Shown piece by piece: positions 2,306 to 30,595 of a DNA stretch of 32,760 nt. Numbering within the stretch: the stretch's first letter is position 1; every line of letters starts with the position of its first letter. Source of the stretch: Thraustochytrium aureum (taxonomy: Eukaryota); contig BLSG01000139.1 in the NCBI GenBank assembly GCA_012862495.1, positions 18,272 through 51,031 on the forward strand, given 5' to 3'. A model generated the notes under the pieces. The model was not told where the DNA came from. It worked only from the letters and a program-made list of their open reading frames with translations, and ran no database searches. Both the position numbers and the translations under genes were made by a program.

Positions 2306-2887
2306 NNNNNNNNNNNNNNNNNNNNNNNNNNNNNNNNNNNNNNNNNNNNNNNNNNNNNNNNNNNNNNNNNNNNNNNNNNNNNNNNNNNNNNNNNNNNNNN
2401 NNNNNNNNNNNNNNNNNNNNNNNNNNNNNNNNNNNNNNNNNNNNNNNNNNNNNNNNNNNNNNNNNNNNNNNNNNNNNNNNNNNNNNNNNNNNNNNNNNNN
2501 NNNNNNNNNNNNNNNNNNNNNNNNNNNNNNNNNNNNNNNNNNNNNNNNNNNNNNNNNNNNNNNNNNNNNNNNNNNNNNNNNNNNNNNNNNNNNNNNNNNN
2601 NNNNNNNNNNNNNNNNNNNNNNNNNNNNNNNNNNNNNNNNNNNNNNNNNNNNNNNNNNNNNNNNNNNNNNNNNNNNNNNNNNNNNNNNNNNNNNNNNNNN
2701 NNNNNNNNNNNNNNNNNNNNNNNNNNNNNNNNNNNNNNNNNNNNNNNNNNNNNNNNNNNNNNNNNNNNNNNNNNNNNNNNNNNNNNNNNNNNNNNNNNNN
2801 NNNNNNNNNNNNNNNNNNNNNNNNNNNNNNNNNNNCTAGCTAGAGAGAGGCCGGTGTAGCGATTTGGGTTGGTTTTGATTGACAACT

Positions 2888-11890: not shown

Positions 11891-11967
11891 GGAAGCGTGG
11901 CGCTCGCACAGGAAGCGTGGCGCTCGCACGGAAGCGTGGCGCTCGCACGGAAGCGTGGCGCTCGCAC
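11891..11967. repeat. 19-bp tandem repeat x4 (GGAAGCGTGGCGCTCGCAC)
   Basis: Copies start at 11891, 11911, 11930 and 11949. The array lies 5 bp from the ATG of the small membrane protein. Confidence 0.92.
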
Positions 11968-12100: not shown

Positions 12101-12171
12101 TCTCCCATGGTGTAGTGGTAACACAATTGACTTTGAATCAATAGCTCTGGGTTCGATTCCCGGTGGGAGAA
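12101..12171 (+). tRNA. tRNA-Gln, anticodon UUG
   Basis: Acceptor stem TCTCCCA/TGGGAGA; D arm GTGTAGTGGTAACAC; anticodon arm ATTGA-CTTTGAA-TCAAT; T arm CTGGG-TTCGATT-CCCGG; no encoded CCA. Confidence 0.95.
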
Positions 12172-12172
12172 C

Positions 12173-12178: not shown

Positions 12179-12575
12179 GTTGGGTCAGAGGTCTCAGTCC
12201 TACCTGACAAGGATAGNNNNNNNNNNNNNNNNNNNNNNNNNNNNNNNNNNNNNNNNNNNNNNNNNNNNNNNNNNNNNNNNNNNNNNNNNNNNNNNNNNNN
12301 NNNNNNNNNNNNNNNNNNNNNNNNNNNNNNNNNNNNNNNNNNNNNNNNNNNNNNNNNNNNNNNNNNNNNNNNNNNNNNNNNNNNNNNNNNNNNNNNNNNN
12401 NNNNNNNNNNNNNNNNNNNNNNNNNNNNNNNNNNNNNNNNNNNNNNNNNNNNNNNNNNNNNNNNNNNNNNNNNNNNNNNNNNNNNNNNNNNNNNNNNNNN
12501 NNNNNNNNNNNNNNNNNNNNNNNNNNNNNNNNNNNNNNNNNNNNNCACCTGAACTGGCAAAGGCAATCCCTGATC

Positions 12576-12676
12576 TGGCAAAGCCCGGCAACAATGCGTG
12601 GCAAAGACCCGGCAACAATGCGTGGCAAAGACCCGGCAACAATGCGTGGCAAAGACCCGGCAACAATACCTGGCAA
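12576..12676. repeat. 24-bp tandem repeat, about 4 copies (TGGCAAAGACCCGGCAACAATGCG)
   Basis: Copies start at 12576 (1-nt deletion), 12599, 12623 and 12647 (degenerate end). Lies downstream of LPMO-like gene A. Confidence 0.9.
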
Positions 12677-12739
12677 GGACGACAACAACCCTGCCAATCG
12701 CGCACGTTGAAAGTTACTTTTGAGTATCACCTTACTACT

Positions 12740-13835
12740 CTACACTTGGTATCGCGGGTTGGCGGCTGCCATTGGTTGCTGCGAATGGATCCTGTCCAAC
12801 TGACGACGCTTTTTGTAGATCGTGAAGCCCATCCCCACGGCAAGCACCGAACCCACGACACCGACGCCAACGCCAGCGCTCTGCGCTGTTGAAAGGCCTG
12901 CCGTTTCGTTACCGTTATCGATCGATCCAGCAGCGCTTTGCATGCTCCCAGGCACGCACTGGCTGTAGTATGAATTGTACGTCTTGCACGATGTACCCTG
13001 AGGGCAGCAGGCAACACCCGTGAAGGAATTCCCACCGCATTGGCTCCAAACTGCGTTGGGGCAGTTGACCGTCGGCGCGGGGGTCGGCGGAGCAACTGTG
13101 GGCGCCGTCGGGGCATTTGTTGGAGAACCTGCGAAGGCATGGATCAGGTTAGCTGCGACCCAGTGCTATTTCAACGATAGGTGCAAAAGCGCAGCCATCA
13201 CAACGGCACTCGCCGAACGCTTACCATTTCCAGTGCCGCCCCCGGTGCCGCCATCGGCGCCGCCCCCCGTGCCAATGCAGCCTGGGCTGCCTGCAGTGCA
13301 GGGCTCTAGGGTGGCCTCCGCTGGGCCGACGAGGTACTGCTCGCTGGGGCTCTGGCCAGAATACACCTTGCGGTATGCATCAGCGCTCGCCGGGAGGTGC
13401 TCGATTCCAGCGATCGCCACCATCGGTGTCGGCTTGGCCGGGCCCGCGCTTGAAACGATCTTGACATCCGTGCACTGCACATAAAACTCGACGTTGGTGA
13501 CTTGCTGGTGCGCAGTCCATTCCCAGCGCAAAACGCAGTGCTCGCAAGCTGGGAGAGCTGCCGGAATCGGCGCTTGAAGCGTGTATTGATTGGGCATCGC
13601 AATCGCGTTGACTGCGCCGCACCCAGGGAAAGAGGCGATTTTGAAGAAGTCCGTGGGGTTGCACGGCTCGTTTGCAGGTTTGCCCTCGCAAGAATAGCTC
13701 ACGTACAGGTAGCAGTCACCGGGGTGCGGGGCTTCCATCGTGACGCCGAGCTCGAGGTTCGTGCCAGCCGTAACAGTTGTCAGGGCGGAGGGGGTGTCAA
13801 AGTCATGGCACCGCATTGATGTAGGGCTGTACCCG
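12740..13835 (-). CDS. LPMO-like protein A with CBM1, TM helix and NPRYQV tail; 5' end in gap; exons >13835-13225 and 13128-12740
   Basis: The catalytic-type domain is nearly collinear with paralogue B (RCHDF, HPGDCYLY, CEHCVLRWEWTAHQQ, EFYVQCTDV). After a phase-1 intron the frame reads a P/T linker, CBM1 CPNAVWSQCGGNSFTGVACCPQGTSCKTYNSYYSQCVP, TM AGVGVGVVGSVLAVGMGFTIY, KKRR, ...ANPRYQV*. Confidence 0.85.
13129..13224 (-). other. Spliceosomal intron (96 nt, phase 1) in LPMO-like gene A
   Basis: Donor G|GTAAGC, branch-like GCTAAC and acceptor TTCGCAG|G. Splicing puts CBM1 in frame. Confidence 0.88.
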
Positions 13836-14547
13836 NNNNNNNNNNNNNNNNNNNNNNNNNNNNNNNNNNNNNNNNNNNNNNNNNNNNNNNNNNNNNNNNN
13901 NNNNNNNNNNNNNNNNNNNNNNNNNNNNNNNNNNNNNNNNNNNNNNNNNNNNNNNNNNNNNNNNNNNNNNNNNNNNNNNNNNNNNNNNNNNNNNNNNNNN
14001 NNNNNNNNNNNNNNNNNNNNNNNNNNNNNNNNNNNNNNNNNNNNNNNNNNNNNNNNNNNNNNNNNNNNNNNNNNNNNNNNNNNNNNNNNNNNNNNNNNNN
14101 NNNNNNNNNNNNNNNNNNNNNNNNNNNNNNNNNNNNNNNNNNNNNNNNNNNNNNNNNNNNNNNNNNNNNNNNNNNNNNNNNNNNNNNNNNNNNNNNNNNN
14201 NNNNNNNNNNNNNNNNNNNNNNNNNNNNNNNNNNNNNNNNNNNNNNNNNNNNNNNNNNNNNNNNNNNNNNNNNNNNNNNNNNNNNNNNNNNNNNNNNNNN
14301 NNNNNNNNNNNNNNNNNNNNNNNNNNNNNNNNNNNNNNNNNNNNNNNNNNNNNNNNNNNNNNNNNNNNNNNNNNNNNNNNNNNNNNNNNNNNNNNNNNGT
14401 CTGTCTAATCACAATTTACAAGCGGTGCCTGGCGCAGTCGCGCACGCCAAACATGACCAAGGCATGGTCGATACTGGTTGTAAATGCGGTCGCGCGTCTG
14501 CGGCGCGCGACGCACTGGGAAAGGCGATCTTCAAATGGCTCGAGGGG

Positions 14548-16113
14548 CTAGTCGAGCACTGCCACTGTTTGGCGTCGCGCGAGCCAGGCCGTGCCAAGGT
14601 CATCGTGGCTCGGAAGGCGGTCGAAAAGGGCCAGTGCAGCAGCGCGGAGATGATCGAGTCGACGCGAGCCCGACGGTAACGGGACGACGAGCAAAAATAC
14701 GAGCGCAGGCCCATAGAACGAGAGACCGAGCAGGGTGCAAAAATGCAGCGCTGCGGCCCACACGACGCAGACCAGAAAAAGCAGCATGAGCATAACTGAG
14801 GTGGCCAGAGGGTCTGAAAAGTTCCACGCATTCACAGCCTTCTCAAGCAGCGTCGCGCCAATGTCGGCGGCCTGAGCCGCCTGATCAAACTTTCGCGCAA
14901 CTCTGGCAAGGCGCACCACTGTCGAGAGGCCCTGGTCGGGGTCTTGGTCGATATCTTGGTTGAAGATGACCCAGTTGTAGTTCTCGTGGTGCACCTTTTT
15001 GCTGAGAATGCACATGGCGGTGAGAAGGGCATACAGGAGGAGCGGCGCGGCCCATTGAGGCAGCCACCGAGCCGCCGCGAGAGCAAGGGCGCAGACGCCC
15101 CCCGACAGCAGCGGCTGGTCCCAGCTGCGCAAGTGAAAAAGCAAAACAACTGGGAGACTAGAGAGCATCTCGAGTAGCGACGTTTCGATGCGCGCCGCGT
15201 TGCGCTTGATGTCGTTCACGCTGGCCAAAAGCTCTTGCGGCAAGCTGAGAGCGCGAACGCGGTCGTCTGCGCCAGCGTCGCGGCGTCGGCTGCGGTGCGC
15301 CGGGATGTATCTGCGGTTGGCCAAATAGAGCGGCCATAGAATGCGCTTGGGGCCAAAGATGTCGAGCTCGTGGCGCACTGTCAAGTGGAGGGAGCCGTCG
15401 TAGGCTTCCTTGTCGAGGCCTGTGCCAAGCGCCTTGCGATGGCCCGGAACGCCAAGCTTGTAGGTTGCGCTACTCGCGGGCGTGGGCGGCGGCAGCAAAG
15501 CATAGACGGCGGTGCGGCTCTGGCGGGCGCCTCGGTCCAGCAACGCAAAGAAAGGGACGACCAAAGTCCCGATGCACTTGTCCTTGGCGGACAGCGCGCT
15601 GCTGCTAAAGACGCGGATCGAGAAAGAGCCTGCAATGTCGGTGACTGGGAGCCGTGCCTCGAGCTCCCACACGAAAATGGTCCCGGCTGTTTGAAACGCA
15701 ATCGGTGATTGGATGGTCTCGCCTTCCACGCTCAGCTCAAACCACGCTTTGCTTGCGTCCTCGCAAACCAGGGATTTGACCCGGACTTTGAGGAAGCCGA
15801 TGCGCTCTCTCTTCGCTAGACCCAGCTGCTCGTCGCTCTCTTCGCAGAGGCCGAGGGGTGCCAGCTTGCCGCCAAGGAGCCAGTTACCCTCGGCTTGCGC
15901 CGAGTCGCGCTCGTCCGCGTTGGCGCCCGCAGCAGAGGCATCGTCCGCGCCGAGCTCGCCGAGGTCGACCACGAGCTTCCTGAACGCGGTCGACTCGAGT
16001 ACCGTGTTTTCCACGTTGCGCAGCTCGCGTTTGATCTTGGACCTCCATTTGTCTTTGGTCTCGGCCCAGTCCAGCTCGAGCGACTGGAGCCAGCGCTCGC
16101 CCGGGTTGTCCAT
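14548..16113 (-). CDS. C2 domain membrane protein with MCTP/PRT_C-like C-terminus; divergent paralogue of 7186..10134
   Basis: C2-like IGFLKVRVKSL...FVWELEARLPVTDIAGSFSIRVF...CIGTLVVP; TM hairpins; EKAVNAWNFSDPLAT and DRLPSHDDLG motifs. Start assigned to the ATG at 16113; an upstream in-frame ATG lies at 16359. Confidence 0.78.
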   Translation of the reverse strand: MDNPGERWLQSLELDWAETKDKWRSKIKRELRNVENTVLESTAFRKLVVDLGELGADDASAAGANADERDSAQAEGNWLLGGKLAPLGLCEESDEQLGLAKRERIGFLKVRVKSLVCEDASKAWFELSVEGETIQSPIAFQTAGTIFVWELEARLPVTDIAGSFSIRVFSSSALSAKDKCIGTLVVPFFALLDRGARQSRTAVYALLPPPTPASSATYKLGVPGHRKALGTGLDKEAYDGSLHLTVRHELDIFGPKRILWPLYLANRRYIPAHRSRRRDAGADDRVRALSLPQELLASVNDIKRNAARIETSLLEMLSSLPVVLLFHLRSWDQPLLSGGVCALALAAARWLPQWAAPLLLYALLTAMCILSKKVHHENYNWVIFNQDIDQDPDQGLSTVVRLARVARKFDQAAQAADIGATLLEKAVNAWNFSDPLATSVMLMLLFLVCVVWAAALHFCTLLGLSFYGPALVFLLVVPLPSGSRRLDHLRAAALALFDRLPSHDDLGTAWLARRQTVAVLD

Positions 16114-16408
16114 GTCGGCGGCGGAGGAGGAGGCCCGTTGAGGTCGACTTGGCCTGGCGCTGTGGGCCGATAACTCGTAGCGCGGGGAGGGCTTGCTGGC
16201 TTCAGCTGGGACGATCGCCGCGCCGGCTGTGCGCGCTCTCGTGTGCGGCCTGGCCTGTTCCGTTCGCGGCACTGCACGGGCTGTGACGCAGTGAACAAGT
16301 GAACACCACAACAGTGACAACACCAGCGAAATAGAACAAGGAGCGCCACGAACGAACATGAGCACTGCTGACGACGTGGCTGACGAGCTCGCTAGCTGTC
16401 GGGCTTGC

Positions 16409-16468
16409 GCGGGCTCGCTTGGCTGGCGGGCTCGCTTGGCTGGCGGGCTCGCTTGGCTGGCGGGCTCG
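16409..16468. repeat. 17-bp tandem repeat x3.5 (GCGGGCTCGCTTGGCTG)
   Basis: Copies start at 16409, 16426, 16443 and 16460 (partial). Confidence 0.88.
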
Positions 16469-16691
16469 GCGACATCAGCGACTTGAGTCACTGGAGCTCG
16501 ATGCGACCTCGCGCAAGCTGCGCCAGGCGCGGCGCGGGAACGCAGCGAGAGTTGCTCTGAACGAGATAGAGATAGAGCTGGTCAGGCCACGGTTCTATCT
16601 CGTTCATCCAAGGGTGGTGCAGCGTCCTGACAGCCGTGAAACTCTGCATGAGGAATCGTGGAGGTTTGCAAATACTAGCGTTTTGTTGTGT

Positions 16692-17998
16692 CTACACTTG
16701 GTAGCGCGGGTTGGCGTTGGCGACCATGCCTTGGGGCGGCATGGACTTCAGCTGGTCTTGCTGGCGCTTCTTCTTGTACAAGGTGAAGCCCATCCCGGCA
16801 GCAAAAAGTGACCCGACGATGCCGACGCCGAGTCCAGCGCTCTGCGCGGTGGTCAATCCAGCGGTGTTGCCCGCGGAGTCGACCGAGCCGGCCTCAAGCT
16901 GGCCAGCGCCAGGAATGCACTGCGAGTACCATTCGCTCTGAAAGTTGCAAATCGTCCCGGCGGGGCAGCACTCTGCGCCTGTGAACGTCTTGCCACCGCA
17001 CTTGGCCCAGACACGGTTCGGGCAGTTGACAGACGGCGGGGGGGTCGGGACTGGTGTAGGAGCTGGCTGGCCTGTGTTTGGGAAACGAGTCCAGGCGGTT
17101 ATCGGAACGCAAGCAGCGCAGTCGTCAGTATTGGAACAAATCCGGCATGCACTACGGCGGGCTGCAAATTCCGCTTACCTCCTCCAGTGCCGCCGTCACC
17201 AGTGCCGCCGCCAGTGCCGCCGCCAGTGCCGCCGTCGGTGCCACCAGCTCCGGTCCCGCCGGCCCCGACGCAGCCCGGGCTGCCTGCGGTGCAGGCCGTG
17301 AACGTGGCCTGAGCAGGGCCGACAAGGTACTGCGGCCCGGGGCCCTCGCCGTTGTACACCTTGCGGTACGCCGCCGCGGTGTTCGGAAGGTGCTGAATGC
17401 CGGCGATGGCAACCATGGGGCTCGGCTTTGCAGGCGGCGCGTTGGAAACAATCTTGACGTCTGCGCACTGCACGTAAAACTCGATGTCGACGACCTGCTG
17501 GTGCGCCGTCCACTCCCAGCGCGGCACGCAGTGCTCACAAGCGGGCAGAGCTGCCGGGATGACCGTGTTCAGAGTGAAGGCGCCCGGGGGCGCGATCGAG
17601 TTGACGGCGCCGCAGCCCGGGAACGACGCGATCTTGAAAAAGTCTGTTGGCTCGCACGGCTCGGTCGCGGGTTTGCCCTCGCACGAGTAGCTCATGTACA
17701 GGTAGCAATCGCCAGGGTGTGCGGCCTCGAGCGAGATGTCCAGGCCGAGGTTCTGCCCGGCTGTGATGGTGGTCAGCGCAGAGGGCTGCTTAAAGTCGTG
17801 GCACCGCATCGAGGTGGGGCTGTACCCGCCGCGGTTGCCGGCGAGGACGTAGACGGGCGCGCGCTGCTCGTGGCTCACCGCCCTGCCGATCGAGTCGCCG
17901 CGGGGCGTGGGCTTGATGAGCTGCCCGTGCCCGCTGGCCGGGTCGGCAAGAGCCGCGAGGGCGGCGAACGCGGCGGCAGTTGCGGCGAGAACCTTCAT
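16692..17998 (-). CDS. LPMO-like (His-brace) protein B, 399 aa: signal peptide, LPMO-like domain, G/P/T linker, CBM1, TM helix, NPRYQV; exons 17998-17179 and 17071-16692
   Basis: Signal peptide MKVLAATAAAFAALAALADPASG is followed directly by His (HGQLIKPTPR). Second His in AAHPGDC; EFYVQCADV. Exons of 820+380 = 1200 nt are in frame. CBM1 CPNRVWAKCGGKTFTGAECCPAGTICNFQSEWYSQCIP; TM AGLGVGIVGSLFAAGMGFTLY; KKKR...ANANPRYQV*. Confidence 0.9.
17072..17178 (-). other. Spliceosomal intron (107 nt, phase 1) in LPMO-like gene B
   Basis: Donor G|GTAAGC, branch-like TACTGAC and acceptor ACACAG|G. Same position and phase as in gene A. Confidence 0.88.
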
Positions 17999-20129
17999 GG
18001 TGATGTCGCTGTTGGGTTTTCCTTTTGGTGAAGCCTGCGGAGGTTTGGGGTTTGGCTCGCCGAGCAAAGTCCCAACCACTCAGGCTGCTCTACTCACCTT
18101 AGCTACCTTAGACTGCGAGGACGCACTCCATTCAGACTATACCTTGATAAGAGAGTACCCACTCTAGTAGTATGTGGCATCAATGTGGCATGCTGCGTTT
18201 GGCGCCATCATCCAAACCTTGCGATGATGCCGCAGTTTCGCGCAGCCTGCACTGTGCAGACACAAAAAGCAGGCATTTCATTCATCAATTTCCATGGGCT
18301 ATCCAGCCAGTGTCGCCACAAACTTGTCATGCGCAACCGCCCCATTCACGCGACTACACTCTGTAGGTACCGTTTGCTCTGCGAGCCACTCTGCGAGCCG
18401 CTTTGTTCGCGCGTGTTGAATTCCTGTCCTTGCTTGGGGCAATTGGGGGGCGCCGCAAATCGGGCAAGCGTCCATTTTCCGCGCAAAGGAAGGGCCAAAT
18501 CGTGCAAGGAGCGATGGAGCCGAGCAAGCGAGCGAGTAGTGAAGCGGAGCCGTTGCTGCTGGCAGGCCAAAACTTGGGGGGCCAAAGCCAGGACAGGCTT
18601 CGTCAGCCCAACGCTCACGCAGAGCACGCGCGGGTCACCTCGGCATCTATCCACGGGCACTCCAACGATGCGAAGAGTGCCGGCCCAATCCTGGCTTCAC
18701 AAGAAGCGGGCGCACGGCCAGGCCGCCTCGAGTCGCTCTCGATCCTGGGCGTGCGCAAGTCGGGGGTTGCATTTCTGCCACGGCGCACGGTGGCGTGCGC
18801 CCATTTTTTTGGTGTGAGCAGTCTCCATCCGAGACCTATCGCTGAACAACGATCAACTCGCGAGCAAAAGCAGGCACGCCAGCGGAACGAACAATGACTA
18901 GATCGGCGGGTGTGTCCGATCCGAAGTGCGGAACGCTCCGAGCCGCGGCACGTGCTCTCGCACGAAGGAGGGGCACAAGGAGCTGCGGGCAGGCCACGCA
19001 GCCGCGGTGGATCGAGAAAAGAAACGATGTTGCTCGAATGTACGTAGAGGCAAACTNNNNNNNNNNNNNNNNNNNNNNNNNNNNNNNNNNNNNNNNNNNN
19101 NNNNNNNNNNNNNNNNNNNNNNNNNNNNNNNNNNNNNNNNNNNNNNNNNNNNNNNNNNNNNNNNNNNNNNNNNNNNNNNNNNNNNNNNNNNNNNNNNNNN
19201 NNNNNNNNNNNNNNNNNNNNNNNNNNNNNNNNNNNNNNNNNNNNNNNNNNNNNNNNNNNNNNNNNNNNNNNNNNNNNNNNNNNNNNNNNNNNNNNNNNNN
19301 NNNNNNNNNNNNNNNNNNNNNNNNNNNNNNNNNNNNNNNNNNNNNNNNNNNNNNNNNNNNNNNNNNNNNNNNNNNNNNNNNNNNNNNNNNNNNNNNNNNN
19401 NNNNNNNNNNNNNNNNNNNNNNNNNNNNNNNNNNNNNNNNNNNNNNNNNNNNNNNNNNNNNNNNNNNNNNNNNNNNNNNNNNNNNNNNNNNNNNNNNNNN
19501 NNNNNNNNNNNNNNNNNNNNNNNNNNNNNNNNNNNNNNNNNNNNNNNNNNNNNNNNNNNNNNNNNNNNNNNNNNNNNNNNNNNNNNNNNNNNNNNNNNNN
19601 NNNNNNNNNNNNNNNNNNNNNNNNNNNNNNNNNNNNNNNNNNNNNNNNNNNNNNNNNNNNNNNNNNNNNNNNNNNNNNNNNNNNNNNNNNNNNNNNNNNN
19701 NNNNNNNNNNNNNNNNNNNNNNNNNNNNNNNNNNNNNNNNNNNNNNNNNNNNNNNNNNNNNNNNNNNNNNNNNNNNNNNNNNNNNNNNNNNNNNNNNNNN
19801 NNNNNNNNNNNNNNNNNNNNNNNNNNNNNNNNNNNNNNNNNNNNNNNNNNNNNNNNNNNNNNNNNNNNNNNNNNNNNNNNNNNNNNNNNNNNNNNNNNNN
19901 NNNNNNNNNNNNNNNNNNNNNNNNNNNNNNNNNNNNNNNNNNNNNNNNNNNNNNNNNNNNNNNNNNNNNNNNNNNNNNNNNNNNNNNNNNNNNNNNNNNN
20001 NNNNNNNTGTCCGTCGCCTGTCGGGGAAACCCACGGCTTGCGCGCCAGCGTCCGTGATCCACCGCCACGGTCCGATCCGCGGCGCGCCCTGGAGCAGAAC
20101 AGAGCGGTGACGTGGCGGCGACGGCGGCG

Positions 20130-23747: not shown

Positions 23748-25412
23748 TAAGCCTGGTCTGCAGCAAAGAGCGGAGTGGCGGCTTGCGATTGGGATTTGGG
23801 GACTGGAACACGACGGCAAGGTAGGTAGAGCAGCGAAGTAGGTTGGTCGGCTGCCGCTTCAGTCTTGTGCACGACGCAACATGGATACTCCACTGCCGCC
23901 TGCGGCAAGGAGGCGACAGCAGACACTCCAGGAGAAGAAGGGTCGCATGATGAAGCGCGAGCCGTCGCCGCTGCTTTTTCCCATGAGCCTTCGATTTCCC
24001 AAGTCCAAGTTTTCATTTACGTCCTCTCTGTTCTGTGTCGGAACAGCACCGCAGGTGGTTTCACCACTCCCTCTCACACGCGTTCATCGCATGGAGAGCA
24101 CCACCTTTTGTCTGCGACACCCGCCAGCACTGCGGAAGTGGACACACGAAACACTCTCTGGCAGCATCCAACGGTGGGTCATCACAGCAGTACTGAAAAT
24201 CCCGCTCGTCCATCGCGCGAGAGTGACCGTGACTCGGACTCGCGCTGCGCGCACCTGCGGGCGAAAGTGGGCCGGCCCGTTGCCTCACGGCGCAACTCCG
24301 CGGGTTTCGATGCTCCTTGCTGATTTCGTTGCTCGTGCCGTTCCGATTCCTCCGCGGGTTCTGAAACGCCAGAGATGCTCCTCCGACGCCACAAACTTCC
24401 GACCAGGGCATCATCAATCAATCAATCCACCCAAATCAGCGACTTTACCCGGCTTGAATGGACTCGGAGAGTCATCAAGGTGAAGGCAAAGCAGCAAAAG
24501 GAAGGAAAAGACACTACTNNNNNNNNNNNNNNNNNNNNNNNNNNNNNNNNNNNNNNNNNNNNNNNNNNNNNNNNNNNNNNNNNNNNNNNNNNNNNNNNNN
24601 NNNNNNNNNNNNNNNNNNNNNNNNNNNNNNNNNNNNNNNNNNNNNNNNNNNNNNNNNNNNNNNNNNNNNNNNNNNNNNNNNNNNNNNNNNNNNNNNNNNN
24701 NNNNNNNNNNNNNNNNNNNNNNNNNNNNNNNNNNNNNNNNNNNNNNNNNNNNNNNNNNNNNNNNNNNNNNNNNNNNNNNNNNNNNNNNNNNNNNNNNNNN
24801 NNNNNNNNNNNNNNNNNNNNNNNNNNNNNNNNNNNNNNNNNNNNNNNNNNNNNNNNNNNNNNNNNNNNNNNNNNNNNNNNNNNNNNNNNNNNNNNNNNNN
24901 NNNNNNNNNNNNNNNNNNNNNNNNNNNNNNNNNNNNNNNNNNNNNNNNNNNNNNNNNNNNNNNNNNNNNNNNNNNNNNNNNNNNNNNNNNNNNNNNNNNN
25001 NNNNNNNNNNNNNNNNNNNNNNNNNNNNNNNNNNNNNNNNNNNNNNNNNNNNNNNNNNNNNNNNNNNNNNNNNNNNNNNNNNNNNNNNNNNNNNNNNNNN
25101 NNNNNNNNNNNNNNNNNNNNNNNNNNNNNNNNNNNNNNNNNNNNNNNNNNNNNNNNNNNNNNNNNNNNNNNNNNNNNNNNNNNNNNNNNNNNNNNNNNNN
25201 NNNNNNNNNNNNNNNNNNNNNNNNNNNNNNNNNNNNNNNNNNNNNNNNNNNNNNNNNNNNNNNNNNNNNNNNNNNNNNNNNNNNNNNNNNNNNNNNNNNN
25301 NNNNNNNNNNNNNNNNNNNNNNNNNNNNNNNNNNNNNNNNNNNNNNNNNNNNNNNNNGCAATACCAGCTAGCTAGCTAGAGAGCGACGAGCATGCGCGCC
25401 GGAGCCAACCAG

Positions 25413-29684: not shown

Positions 29685-30595
29685 NNNNNNNNNNNNNNNN
29701 NNNNNNNNNNNNNNNNNNNNNNNNNNNNNNNNNNNNNNNNNNNNNNNNNNNNNNNNNNNNNNNNNNNNNNNNNNNNNNNNNNNNNNNNNNNNNNNNNNNN
29801 NNNNNNNNNNNNNNNNNNNNNNNNNNNNNNNNNNNNNNNNNNNNNNNNNNNNNNNNNNNNNNNNNNNNNNNNNNNNNNNNNNNNNNNNNNNNNNNNNNNN
29901 NNNNNNNNNNNNNNNNNNNNNNNNNNNNNNNNNNNNNNNNNNNNNNNNNNNNNNNNNNNNNNNNNNNNNNNNNNNNNNNNNNNNNNNNNNNNNNNNNNNN
30001 NNNNNNNNNNNNNNNNNNNNNNNNNNNNNNNNNNNNNNNNNNNNNNNNNNNNNNNNNNNNNNNNNNNNNNNNNNNNNNNNNNNNNNNNNNNNNNNNNNNN
30101 NNNNNNNNNNNNNNNNNNNNNNNNNNNNNNNNNNNNNNNNNNNNNNNNNNNNNNNNNNNNNNNNNNNNNNNNNNNNNNNNNNNNNNNNNNNNNNNNNNNN
30201 NNNNNNNTGCGACTGCGATGGAGTACTGAATGAGGCAGAGCACTGAGCGCGCGCACGAGTTCGCACTCTACTCCTCCCACTCAACTTCGCGGCACTGCCC
30301 TGACAGAGCAGGAACATTTGGCTGCCAGTGTCATCTGGCCAGAACACACGCGCAGAGCTCCTCCAGACGACGAGGACAGACCCGCTGGACTGGTGCGCAC
30401 AGCGACCAGCCTGTCTGTCATAGGGACCGGCAGACCGACGGCCACCGCGCGGCGCCTGGCGCCAGAAAGCGCAAGGCGCAGGAGAGCTGAGCTCCCAGCT
30501 CGGCACGCGAGCCCGCCTCCCGAGACGCCAACTCGCCACAAGCAGCAAACGCGCAAGGCGACGGGGCGCACGCAGCACGTTGCCGCGGAGGCGGC

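What the first reader, a model, noticed from the sequence alone, without database searches (positions are those of the whole stretch)
13129..17178. Intron retention would switch both LPMOs to a short GPI-signal-like tail
Seen: reading through the unspliced intron gives an in-frame stop after small residues, a polar spacer and a hydrophobic end in both paralogues (A: ...GTGNGKRSASAVVMAALLHLSLK*, stop 13166; B: ...GTGGGKRNLQPAVVHAGFVPILTTALLAFR*, stop 17099). The intron sequences are otherwise divergent. Established: GPI signals have this small-residue/spacer/hydrophobic layout. Inference: alternative splicing could yield a CBM-less GPI-anchored or shed isoform and a CBM1-TM isoform from one gene. 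The hydrophobic stretches are short and end in a basic residue, so chance is possible.
Basis: partly seen in the sequence, partly recalled or inferred. Interest (0 to 1): 0.72.

Follow-up and report, generated by a model that had tools for sequence, protein, structure and literature searches.

The report
Intron-encoded GPI-like tail in two LPMOs
Two neighbouring genes of a thraustochytrid-like marine protist encode LPMO-type copper enzymes whose single intron, if left unspliced, would swap the cellulose-binding and membrane-spanning end for a short tail predicted to be a GPI lipid-anchor signal; this is a plausible but unproven anchoring switch.

Summary
Both genes lie on the minus strand. Each has one phase-1 GTAAGC...AG intron between a Gly-rich linker and a CBM1-TM exon. 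Reading through gives GKRSASAVVMAALLHLSLK* (gene A) and GKRNLQPAVVHAGFVPILTTALLAFR* (gene B).

New evidence:
- An RNA contig joins 17070 to 17178, so the gene B intron is spliced exactly as predicted.
- An unbroken contig also crosses the intron, at about one fifth of the exon depth. This could be retained-intron mRNA, pre-mRNA or DNA.
- Composition-preserving shuffles give such a hydrophobic tail in about 1% of trials per intron. The paralogues are old (dS about 1.1; intron identity 49%).
- The wider LPMO family often ends in a hydrophobic, GPI-like tail (21 of 78 representatives) or in a TM anchor (26 of 78).

Evidence against:
- The two tails show no sequence-level or dN/dS signal.
- GC3 of the tail codons looks intron-like.
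- Tail A is short.
- No GPI predictor was available, no orthologue DNA was found, and gene A RNA was not examined.

Verdict: the tail is a real, non-trivial feature. It is likely an alternative or ancestral GPI-type C-terminus that has been kept inside the intron (confidence about 0.5). Function is not shown. This would be a new variant of known kinds: GPI-anchored LPMOs and GPI/TM isoform switches.

The parts
17179..17998 (-). Gene B exon 1. It holds the start codon (17998-17996), a predicted signal peptide (17930-17998), His1 of HGQL (17927-17929), the LPMO catalytic domain and a Gly/Thr-rich linker (17180-17266). The last base, 17179, is the first base of the split codon.
   Evidence: Translation; Pfam AA9 at 2e-11; RNA contig colinear over 17178-18062; coordinates.
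17072..17178 (-). Gene B intron: 107 nt, phase 1, GTAAGC...CACAG.
   Evidence: Sequence. A contig in run X1 (depth 93.3) joins 17070 to 17178, skipping 107 nt with ends CT..AC on the + strand. Unbroken contigs cover 17050-17197 (X1, depth 21.1) and 17045-17255 (X2, depth 3.9).
17099..17179 (-). Gene B read-through tail codons GKRNLQPAVVHAGFVPILTTALLAFR plus the stop TAA (17099-17101).
   Evidence: Shuffle P is 0.001-0.009.
16692..17071 (-). Gene B exon 2. It holds a Pro/Thr linker, CBM1 (16914-17012), a TM segment (16776-16832), a cytosolic tail (16695-16775) with NPRY (16701-16712), and the stop (16692-16694).
   Evidence: Translation; Pfam CBM_1 at 4.2e-09; coordinates. RNA contig covers 16665-17045.
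13225..13835 (-). Gene A exon 1, visible part only. It covers the LPMO domain from GYSPTSMRC onward and the Gly-rich linker (13226-13273). The N-terminus lies in the N block 13836-14398.
   Evidence: Translation; 74% amino-acid identity to gene B; N blocks located.
13129..13224 (-). Gene A intron: 96 nt, phase 1, GTAAGC...TTCGCAG, with a CTAAC element. Predicted from the sequence only.
   Evidence: Sequence and homology of position and phase with the gene B intron.
13166..13225 (-). Gene A read-through tail codons GKRSASAVVMAALLHLSLK plus the stop TAG (13166-13168).
   Evidence: Shuffle P is 0.008-0.06.
12740..13128 (-). Gene A exon 2. It holds a linker, CBM1 (12953-13051), a TM segment (12815-12871), a cytosolic tail (12743-12814) with NPRY (12749-12760), and the stop (12740-12742).
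   Evidence: Translation; Pfam CBM_1 at 7.1e-08; coordinates.

Best explanation
Two tandem paralogous genes each encode an LPMO-type enzyme whose single intron, when spliced out (shown for gene B), joins the catalytic domain to a CBM1-transmembrane-NPxY exon; when left in, it would end the protein in a short hydrophobic tail that is predicted to act as a GPI-attachment signal and has likely been kept by selection as an alternative C-terminus.

Shown:
- The gene structure and the read-through frames.
- Splicing of the gene B intron.
- The presence of an unspliced form in RNA-type runs.
- The statistical rarity of such tails.
- The frequent GPI-like and TM-type C-termini across the family.

Inferred:
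- The family's ancestral layout was LPMO, then linker, then a GPI-like tail.
- A donor site arose at the linker/tail boundary and captured a downstream CBM1-TM exon before the A/B duplication.
- Since then the default product has been a type-I membrane LPMO with CBM1 and an NPxY sorting motif. A minority of transcripts that keep the intron would be translated into a CBM-less LPMO that is GPI-anchored, or shed after cleavage.
- The intron is the only intron in the coding sequence and the last one before the 3' end. The read-through stop therefore has no exon junction downstream, so the retained transcript would likely escape junction-dependent mRNA decay.
For: 1. Both tails exist as described.

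2. In RNA-type run X1, the spliced junction is exactly 17070|17178 at depth 93.3. A separate unbroken contig across the intron has depth 21.1. Run X2 holds an unbroken 211-nt contig across the intron.

3. Shuffles that keep dinucleotide content reach the observed hydrophobicity with an in-intron stop at these rates. Gene A: 0.010/0.008/0.062 for the last 12/15/20 residues. Gene B: 0.009/0.005/0.001. The six-frame null in the window gives about 1%.

4. The paralogues are old. dS is 1.08 in the catalytic domain and intron identity is 49%. In a neutral-decay simulation that starts from either tail, only about 4% of trials keep the property at 0.5 substitutions per site, and about 1.6% at 1.0. Keeping it in both copies is therefore unlikely without constraint.

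5. Family context:
- 10 of the 16 closest proteins end in hydrophobic tails by eye.
- 7 of 12 mRNA-like metagenome loci do so; some of these are the same clusters.
- In 78 representatives with a near-complete domain, 21 have a C-terminal hydrophobic tail and 26 a TM-like segment.
- P0016 and P0013 have the same layout as the read-through products: LPMO, a Gly/Ser linker, a basic residue, then a hydrophobic end. P0016 also ends in basic residues.

6. Tail hydrophobicity (last 12 residues: 1.77 and 1.58) lies within the range of 10 of the 11 relatives' native tails tabulated (1.39-3.27); the eleventh, P0016, scores 0.52.

7. Both tails fit the layout in PMC2571997 (passages): small residues at w-1..w+2 from the Gly linker, a spacer of about 6-7 residues, then a hydrophobic end.

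8. GPI anchors are reported for AA9, AA14, AA15 and AA16 LPMOs and for X325 proteins. C-terminal variants by alternative splicing are reported for a Gloeophyllum trabeum LPMO gene (PMC8615602, passages).
Against: - The two tails share no significant sequence similarity (local score 15; P 0.29-0.41).
- dN/dS over 17 aligned codons is about 0.64, which is not informative.
- GC3 of the tail codons (0.54-0.58) resembles the rest of the intron rather than the exons (0.65-0.84).
- Tail A has only 12-13 hydrophobic residues, interrupted by His and Ser. Both tails end in Lys or Arg.
- No GPI predictor could be run.
- The unspliced contigs may be pre-mRNA or carried-over DNA. The runs are only guessed to be RNA, apart from the splice junction itself.
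- Intron retention is common in another stramenopile (PMC5859163, passages), so one fifth unspliced need not be special.
- No baseline from other introns was obtained.
- No orthologue DNA was found; the best metagenome locus is 65% identical.
- Both the statistic and the feature were chosen after seeing the data.
Confidence: 0.5

Rival explanations
1. Chance plus ordinary splicing noise. The intron is constitutive, the unspliced contigs are pre-mRNA or contaminating DNA, and the hydrophobic read-through peptides are accidents of a T- and C-containing, GC-rich intron read in one frame.
For: - The tails show no sequence-level similarity and dN/dS is not significant.
- GC3 of the tail codons is intron-like.
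- 'GKR' and the small residues are explained by the donor consensus and the exon linker.
- Intron retention or unspliced reads are common in stramenopile RNA-seq (PMC5859163).
- The feature was picked post hoc.
- Real introns may be more hydrophobic in read-through than shuffles are, and that null was not available.
Against: - The shuffle P is about 0.01 or less for each of two introns that are only 49% identical, giving a joint value near 1e-4 before any discount for post hoc choice.
- The same kind of tail is the native C-terminus of many relatives.
Confidence: 0.3
2. Decaying relic. The tail is the ancestral GPI signal of the family, stranded in an intron when a CBM1-TM exon was captured. 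It is no longer used and has simply not decayed yet.
For: - Relatives with LPMO, linker and a GPI-like tail exist (P0013, P0016, P0066).
- The intron sits exactly at the linker/tail boundary in both paralogues.
- GC3 of the tail codons is intron-like.
Against: - With dS about 1.08 between the copies, neutral simulation keeps the property in about 4% of trials per lineage at 0.5 substitutions per site. It keeps it in 8.5-9.7% at 0.25. Retention in both copies would therefore be roughly 0.2-1%.
- The intron is otherwise near random identity.
Confidence: 0.15
3. The retained-intron product is made but is not GPI-anchored. The hydrophobic end would serve as a transient membrane or ER-retention segment or a degradation signal, or be removed at the dibasic KR, giving a soluble CBM-less LPMO.
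For: - A KR pair directly precedes the hydrophobic stretch in both tails.
- Tail A is short for a GPI signal and both tails end in a basic residue.
Against: - KR is dictated by the donor sequence GTAAGCG.
- No protease-site or degron evidence is available.
- Relatives' native tails have the same look without KR.
Confidence: 0.05

Closest known systems
GPI-anchored LPMOs and LPMO-like proteins (some AA9, AA14, AA15 and AA16 members; X325)
   Same: A secreted copper-enzyme-type domain, a flexible linker and a C-terminal GPI-type signal. These are reported as a recurring LPMO architecture (PMC8615602, passages). The read-through products here have that layout, and so do many relatives.
   Different: Here the GPI-like signal is not the annotated C-terminus. 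It lies inside an intron and would be used only if the intron is retained. The catalytic domain is only distantly related to AA9 and AA11 (PDB profile E 1e-7). GPI attachment has not been tested.
Alternative splicing that gives C-terminal variants of an LPMO (Gloeophyllum trabeum lpmoA, GtLPMO9A-1 and GtLPMO9A-2)
   Same: One LPMO gene yields products that differ in the region after the catalytic domain (PMC8615602, passage).
   Different: In the passage read, the G. trabeum variant carries a disordered Cys-containing extension. It does not switch between a TM anchor and a GPI anchor. I did not read the original paper.
GPI versus transmembrane isoform switches by alternative splicing in animals (NCAM 120/125 kD versus 140/180 kD; CD160 versus CD160-TM)
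   Same: One gene and two modes of membrane attachment, chosen at the RNA level (PMC2290859, abstract; PMC10870674, listing and start of abstract).
   Different: Those are animal adhesion and immune receptors that use alternative exons. Here the protein is a protist carbohydrate-active enzyme, the mechanism would be retention of the only intron, and the switch also removes a CBM1. Neither protein isoform has been shown here.
[quoted passage not shown]
   Same: The spliced products here are signal peptide, LPMO, then a single C-terminal TM segment. This is the 'membrane-tethered CAZyme' layout described in bioRxiv 10.1101/2021.12.30.474559 (passages).
   Different: The genes here also carry a CBM1, an NPxY-bearing cytosolic tail and the intron-encoded alternative tail. 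The organism and the LPMO clade are different.

Membership tests
LPMO (AA9/AA11-like copper monooxygenase fold) | Significant match to a curated LPMO family model | tested here: met
   Pfam AA9 (PF03443) scores 44.6 bits against a cut-off of 27.8, E 2e-11. A profile of the family hits AA11 and AA9 PDB chains at E 1.3e-07 and weaker.
LPMO (AA9/AA11-like copper monooxygenase fold) | Histidine brace: His as the first residue after signal-peptide cleavage, a second His, and an axial Tyr | tested here: met
   HGQ follows the hydrophobic leader in 13 of the 13 aligned sequences that include the N-terminus, out of 15 rows in all. The His of HPGDCY and the Tyr of EFYVQC align with H and Y of an AA11 chain. 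The cleavage site was judged by eye; no signal-peptide predictor was run. The gene A N-terminus is masked.
LPMO (AA9/AA11-like copper monooxygenase fold) | LPMO beta-sandwich fold | tested here: inconclusive
   The AlphaFold2 model is of low confidence (mean pLDDT 58.6). The listed Foldseek PDB matches are nevertheless LPMO or LPMO-like chains of AA9, AA11, AA10, AA15 and AA16, with a best E of 8.4e-07.
LPMO (AA9/AA11-like copper monooxygenase fold) | Copper binding and oxidative polysaccharide cleavage | not testable with these tools
   This needs biochemistry.
CBM1 | Match to the CBM_1 model with its Cys pattern | tested here: met
   PF00734 scores 36.6 bits (gene B) and 32.7 bits (gene A) against a cut-off of 20.6. 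The Cys spacing was found at 16914-17000 and 12953-13039.
GPI-attachment signal | N-terminal ER signal peptide | tested here: met
   Gene B starts MKVLAATAAAFAALAALADPASG followed by HGQ, judged by eye. Gene A cannot be seen because its N-terminus is in an N block.
GPI-attachment signal | Small residues at w-1..w+2 after an unstructured linker, then a spacer of about 7 residues (layout from PMC2571997) | tested here: met
   By inspection, gene A reads G-T-G then NGKRSAS, and gene B reads G-G-G then KRNLQP. This is weak evidence, because the Gly-rich linker would offer such sites to any tail.
GPI-attachment signal | Hydrophobic stretch running to the C-terminus | tested here: inconclusive
   Gene A has AVVMAALLHLSL+K (12-13 residues, containing His and Ser). 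Gene B has AVVHAGFVPILTTALLAF+R (18 residues). Mean Kyte-Doolittle values over the last 12 residues are 1.77 and 1.58, within the range of most relatives' native tails. Both end in a basic residue, as does relative P0016.
GPI-attachment signal | Positive call by a trained predictor (NetGPI, PredGPI, big-PI) | not testable with these tools
GPI-attachment signal | Lipid anchoring shown (PI-PLC release, detergent partition, mass spectrometry of the w-site) | not testable with these tools
   This needs experiments.
Alternative-splicing GPI/TM isoform switch | Both mRNA forms exist as mature transcripts | tested here: inconclusive
   For gene B, the spliced junction is shown and an unspliced contig is seen at about one fifth of the exon depth. 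Contigs cannot tell mature mRNA from pre-mRNA or DNA.
Alternative-splicing GPI/TM isoform switch | Both protein isoforms are made and differently anchored | not testable with these tools
   This needs proteomics or tagged constructs.

The most novel reading that the evidence does not exclude
An old, selectively maintained intron-retention switch lets a single protist LPMO gene produce two forms. One is a CBM1-bearing, NPxY-sorted transmembrane enzyme. The other is a CBM-less GPI-anchored (or shed) enzyme. The GPI signal is the family's ancestral C-terminus, preserved inside the intron in both paralogues since before their duplication.
Probability: 0.35. Interest if true: 0.7.

Novelty: new variant of a known kind. 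Interest (0 to 1): 0.5.

Why it matters
LPMOs are studied mostly as freely secreted fungal and bacterial enzymes. How they are positioned at the cell surface is an open topic, and protist LPMOs are almost uncharacterised.

If the reading holds, it would give a compact example of anchor switching encoded by one intron: TM plus CBM1 against GPI. It would also show how an exon-capture event can keep the old C-terminus alive as an alternative isoform. Finally, it would offer a handle on surface-bound polysaccharide oxidation in thraustochytrid-like decomposers.

If the reading is wrong, these are simply two ordinary single-intron genes for membrane-tethered LPMO-CBM1 proteins.

Tried and rejected
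- **Whole genome.** None is held. Other introns of this organism could therefore not serve as a null, and the GPI transamidase genes could not be sought.
- **The look-up of sequencing runs.** No RNA holder is listed as such. Three coded runs from one study are only guessed to be RNA.
- **Read laying on gene A (window 12547-13836).** I did not resend or trim it and made no further read-laying run. Gene A splicing and a baseline from other introns are therefore missing.
- **Parts without cover.** X1 has depth 0 at 18079-18100, X2 has none over most exons, and X3 has nothing. These cannot be used to exclude DNA carry-over or to claim silence.
- **Loose ends of contigs at 18062 and 16664.** I considered a spliced leader. 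I rejected it by eye, because the loose letters resemble the window's own flank with small differences. This points to strain or allele variation.
- **Exon 2 protein against longer proteins.** Only two fungal-type CBM1 hits appeared, with no relative sharing the CBM1-TM-NPxY module.
- **phmmer against PDB.** No hits. The profile search was needed.
- **Metagenome loci.** Of 17 loci, none is closer than 65% identity. The test of orthologous introns was therefore impossible. L013-L017 look genomic but are distant, and I did not analyse them.
- **Protein Atlas for IFT46.** Uninformative for taxonomy.
- **Earlier findings.** Nothing was returned.
- **AlphaFold2 on 15 sequences.** Low confidence; used only for a fold search.
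- **Sequence-level tests of the tails.** dN/dS and alignment score against permutations were both non-significant.
- **Paper searches.** I searched LPMO + GPI + alternative splicing, thraustochytrid + LPMO, Labyrinthulomycetes + intron retention and lytic polysaccharide monooxygenase + dinoflagellate. By their titles and abstract starts, and by the passages read from two of them, none of the listed papers describes such a switch or this LPMO clade.
Full report
**What is there.**

Both genes lie on the minus strand.

Gene B:
- It starts at 17998 and runs as one open frame to 17179.
- That frame holds a hydrophobic leader, then HGQL..., an LPMO-type domain and a Gly/Thr-rich linker.
- A 107-nt intron follows at 17178..17072 (GTAAGC...CACAG, phase 1).
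- Exon 2 (17071..16692) encodes a Pro/Thr linker, a CBM1, one transmembrane segment and a 27-residue basic tail ending ANPRYQV.

Gene A:
- It has the same plan.
- Its exon 1 is visible from 13835 down to 13225, and the N-terminus is hidden in an N block.
- The intron is 13224..13129 (96 nt, GTAAGC...TTCGCAG) and exon 2 is 13128..12740.

Family assignment:
- Pfam gives AA9 at 44.6 bits (cut-off 27.8), and CBM_1 for both second exons.
- A family profile reaches AA11 and AA9 structures at E 1e-7. The second brace His and the axial Tyr are aligned.
- A low-confidence AlphaFold2 model (pLDDT 58.6) still finds LPMO or LPMO-like chains in every listed Foldseek match.
- Only these two LPMO genes are in the window.

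**The observation.**

Two caveats follow directly from the sequence:
- The shared 'GKR' is the donor G|GTAAGCG read in frame.
- The 'small residues' are the exon-encoded linker.

Only the hydrophobic stretch and the in-frame stop are therefore informative.

**Is the intron real, and is it ever retained?**

One search for public runs found three coded runs from one study, guessed to be RNA. I laid their contigs on gene B.

- In X1, a 967-nt contig (depth 93.3) is colinear with exon 1 and then jumps from 17178 to 17070. It skips 107 nt with GT..AG ends on the gene's strand. This proves both that RNA is present and that the predicted splice is used.
- In the same run, a separate 148-nt contig (depth 21.1) covers 17050-17197 without a break. 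This is the unspliced form, at roughly one fifth of the exon depth (93-114).
- X2 holds a 211-nt unbroken contig across the intron (depth 3.9) and no spliced contig.
- X3 holds nothing.

Contigs cannot tell retained-intron mRNA from pre-mRNA or carried-over DNA, and uncovered parts prove nothing. Intron retention is prominent in another stramenopile (PMC5859163, passages), so this level may be ordinary.

I left it there. Gene A's splicing and a baseline from other introns are therefore missing.

**More than chance?**

Dinucleotide-preserving shuffles of each intron, with donor and acceptor fixed, gave these results over 20000 trials per intron:

| Measure (mean hydrophobicity) | Gene A | Gene B |
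|---|---|---|
| Last 12 residues | 0.010 | 0.009 |
| Last 15 residues | 0.008 | 0.005 |
| Last 20 residues | 0.062 | 0.001 |

Each value is the fraction of shuffles with an in-intron stop and a tail at least as hydrophobic as the observed one.

Of 644 peptides preceding stops in all six frames of the window, about 1% match the observed values.

The two copies are old:
- Nucleotide identity is 74% in exon 1, 64% in exon 2, 49% in the intron and 39% in the 3' flank.
- dS is 1.08 and dN is 0.16 in the catalytic domain.

I simulated neutral substitution starting from either tail, without indels. About 4% of trials keep a stop-bounded tail of the observed hydrophobicity at 0.5 substitutions per site. 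About 1.6% keep it at 1.0. Persistence in both copies therefore argues for constraint on the property.

Against this:
- The tails share no significant sequence similarity (P 0.29-0.41).
- dN/dS over 17 aligned codons is 0.64 and carries no weight.
- GC3 of the tail codons (0.54-0.58) is intron-like, against 0.65-0.84 in exons.
- The statistic and the feature were chosen after the fact.
- Real introns, the proper null, were not available.

**Family context.**

The closest proteins are 52-61% identical and come from dinoflagellate and unnamed marine transcriptomes.

- By eye, 10 of these 16 end in a hydrophobic tail, and one has a TM segment plus a charged tail.
- Among the 12 metagenome loci analysed of the 17 fetched, L001-L012, which look like mRNA, 7 end in a hydrophobic tail. 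These partly overlap the same clusters.
- A search of 1.84 billion representatives gave 270 hits at E<=1e-3. From the 150 listed, I kept the 78 rows whose match spans most of the catalytic domain and dropped 72 partial rows. A simple rule gave this breakdown:
  - 21 with a C-terminal hydrophobic tail;
  - 26 with an internal hydrophobic segment followed by more residues (mostly TM plus a short basic tail, with some likely false calls);
  - 30 other;
  - 1 ending just after the domain;
  - 4 of the 78 carry a CBM1 motif.
- P0016 (276 aa) and P0013 (328 aa) consist of the LPMO domain, a Gly/Ser/Thr linker, a basic residue and a hydrophobic end. P0016 even ends in GRR. This is the layout of the read-through products.
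- The read-through tails' hydrophobicity lies within the range of these native tails, apart from P0016, which scores lower.

Surface tethering by either a GPI-like tail or a TM segment is thus the family's habit. The window's genes would encode both, one in the intron and one in exon 2.

**GPI-likeness.**

I judged both products against the layout given in PMC2571997 (passages). That layout is an unstructured linker, small residues at w-1..w+2, a spacer at w+3..w+9, and a hydrophobic tail to the end. Both products fit:
- Gene A: G-T-G, NGKRSAS, AVVMAALLHLSLK.
- Gene B: G-G-G, KRNLQP, AVVHAGFVPILTTALLAFR.

Tail A is short and interrupted by His and Ser, and both tails end in a basic residue. 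No trained predictor was available, so 'GPI-like' remains an inspection-level call.

**Organism.**

The window is gene-dense, with long ORFs on both strands and about 60% GC outside the N blocks. It encodes IFT46, an acyl-CoA dehydrogenase, a mitochondrial carrier and an EML-type WD40 protein. Its IFT46 domain is 80% identical to that of Mucochytrium quahogii, a thraustochytrid. It is 61-64% identical to oomycete proteins. I therefore read the source as a thraustochytrid-like labyrinthulomycete. This is placement by one gene, not an identification.

**Most likely mechanism (inferred).**

- The ancestral gene ended in a GPI-type signal.
- A donor at the linker/tail boundary captured a CBM1-TM-NPxY exon before the A/B duplication.
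- The spliced mRNA is the main product. It gives a type-I membrane LPMO with a cellulose-binding module and an NPxY motif in its cytosolic tail.
- Transcripts that keep the intron would give a CBM-less LPMO with a predicted GPI signal.
- The intron is the only one in the coding sequence; the RNA contig is colinear over all of exon 1. The read-through stop therefore has no downstream exon junction, so the retained transcript would likely not be a junction-dependent decay target.

I put about 0.5 on the tail being a maintained alternative C-terminus. I put 0.3 on chance plus splicing noise, 0.15 on an unused relic, and 0.05 on another fate for the product.

**Compared with what is known.**

- GPI-anchored LPMOs (AA9, AA14-16, X325) and alternative splicing that changes an LPMO's C-terminal region (G. 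trabeum) are in print (PMC8615602, passages).
- GPI/TM isoform switches by alternative splicing are classic in animals: NCAM (PMC2290859, abstract) and CD160 (PMC10870674, listing).
- Membrane-tethered protist LPMOs have been described (bioRxiv 10.1101/2021.12.30.474559, passages).
- Four searches listed no paper that, by title and abstract start, describes an intron-retention GPI/TM switch in an LPMO or this LPMO clade in labyrinthulomycetes. Supplements were not consulted.

If real, this is a new variant of known kinds.

**Verdict.**

Function is unproven but testable. Interest is moderate.

Noticed in passing
window 12749-12760 and 16701-16712 (minus strand): Both paralogues end in the same ...ANPRYQV* although the rest of the cytosolic tail has diverged. 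NPRY fits the NPxY tyrosine-based sorting/endocytosis motif; the motif name is recalled, not tested. This suggests that the spliced TM form is internalised or sorted.
   Followed up: partly
(P0005-P0020 against P0169-P0172): The LPMOs' nearest relatives (52-61% identity) are dinoflagellate or unnamed marine sequences. The window's IFT46, in contrast, is closest to a thraustochytrid (80%). A 'Durusdinium trenchii' IFT46 on a 4.7-kb contig is also 80% identical. Possible explanations are lateral transfer of the LPMO family or labyrinthulomycete contamination in dinoflagellate data sets.
   Followed up: no
window 11891-11967, 12576-12680, 16409-16468: Intergenic tandem repeats of 19, 24 and 17 nt (4.0, 4.4 and 3.5 copies, 95-100% matches) flank the LPMO genes and the gene between them. 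The 12-nt arrays at 13233-13273 and 17184-17242 are the Gly-rich linker coding repeats.
   Followed up: partly
window 12101-12172 (+): A tRNA-Gln (anticodon TTG) gene lies just downstream of gene A.
   Followed up: no
window 14548-16581 (minus strand): A long ORF lies between the two LPMO genes (677 codons stop to stop, likely start near 16130). It has no Pfam match and its C-terminal part looks hydrophobic by eye. Its function is unknown.
   Followed up: no
window 16664/16665 and 18062: The gene B RNA contig ends at 16665, only 27 nt after the stop codon. Contigs covering the upstream region of the next gene begin at 16664. Contigs carry loose ends at 16664 and 18062 that resemble the window with small differences. 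The RNA therefore seems to come from a slightly different strain or allele; there are 9 single-letter differences in the exons.
   Followed up: partly
window 17044-17079: Two extra 36-nt contigs in X1 (depths 15.2 and 29.8) cross the acceptor by 8 nt into the intron. One then departs from the window. This may be a second allele of the unspliced form, in which case the unspliced share is higher than one fifth.
   Followed up: no
window 2306-2835, 12217-12545, 13836-14398, 19057-20007, 24519-25357, 29685-30207: Six N blocks of 329-951 nt interrupt the window. One of them hides the N-terminus of gene A.
   Followed up: no
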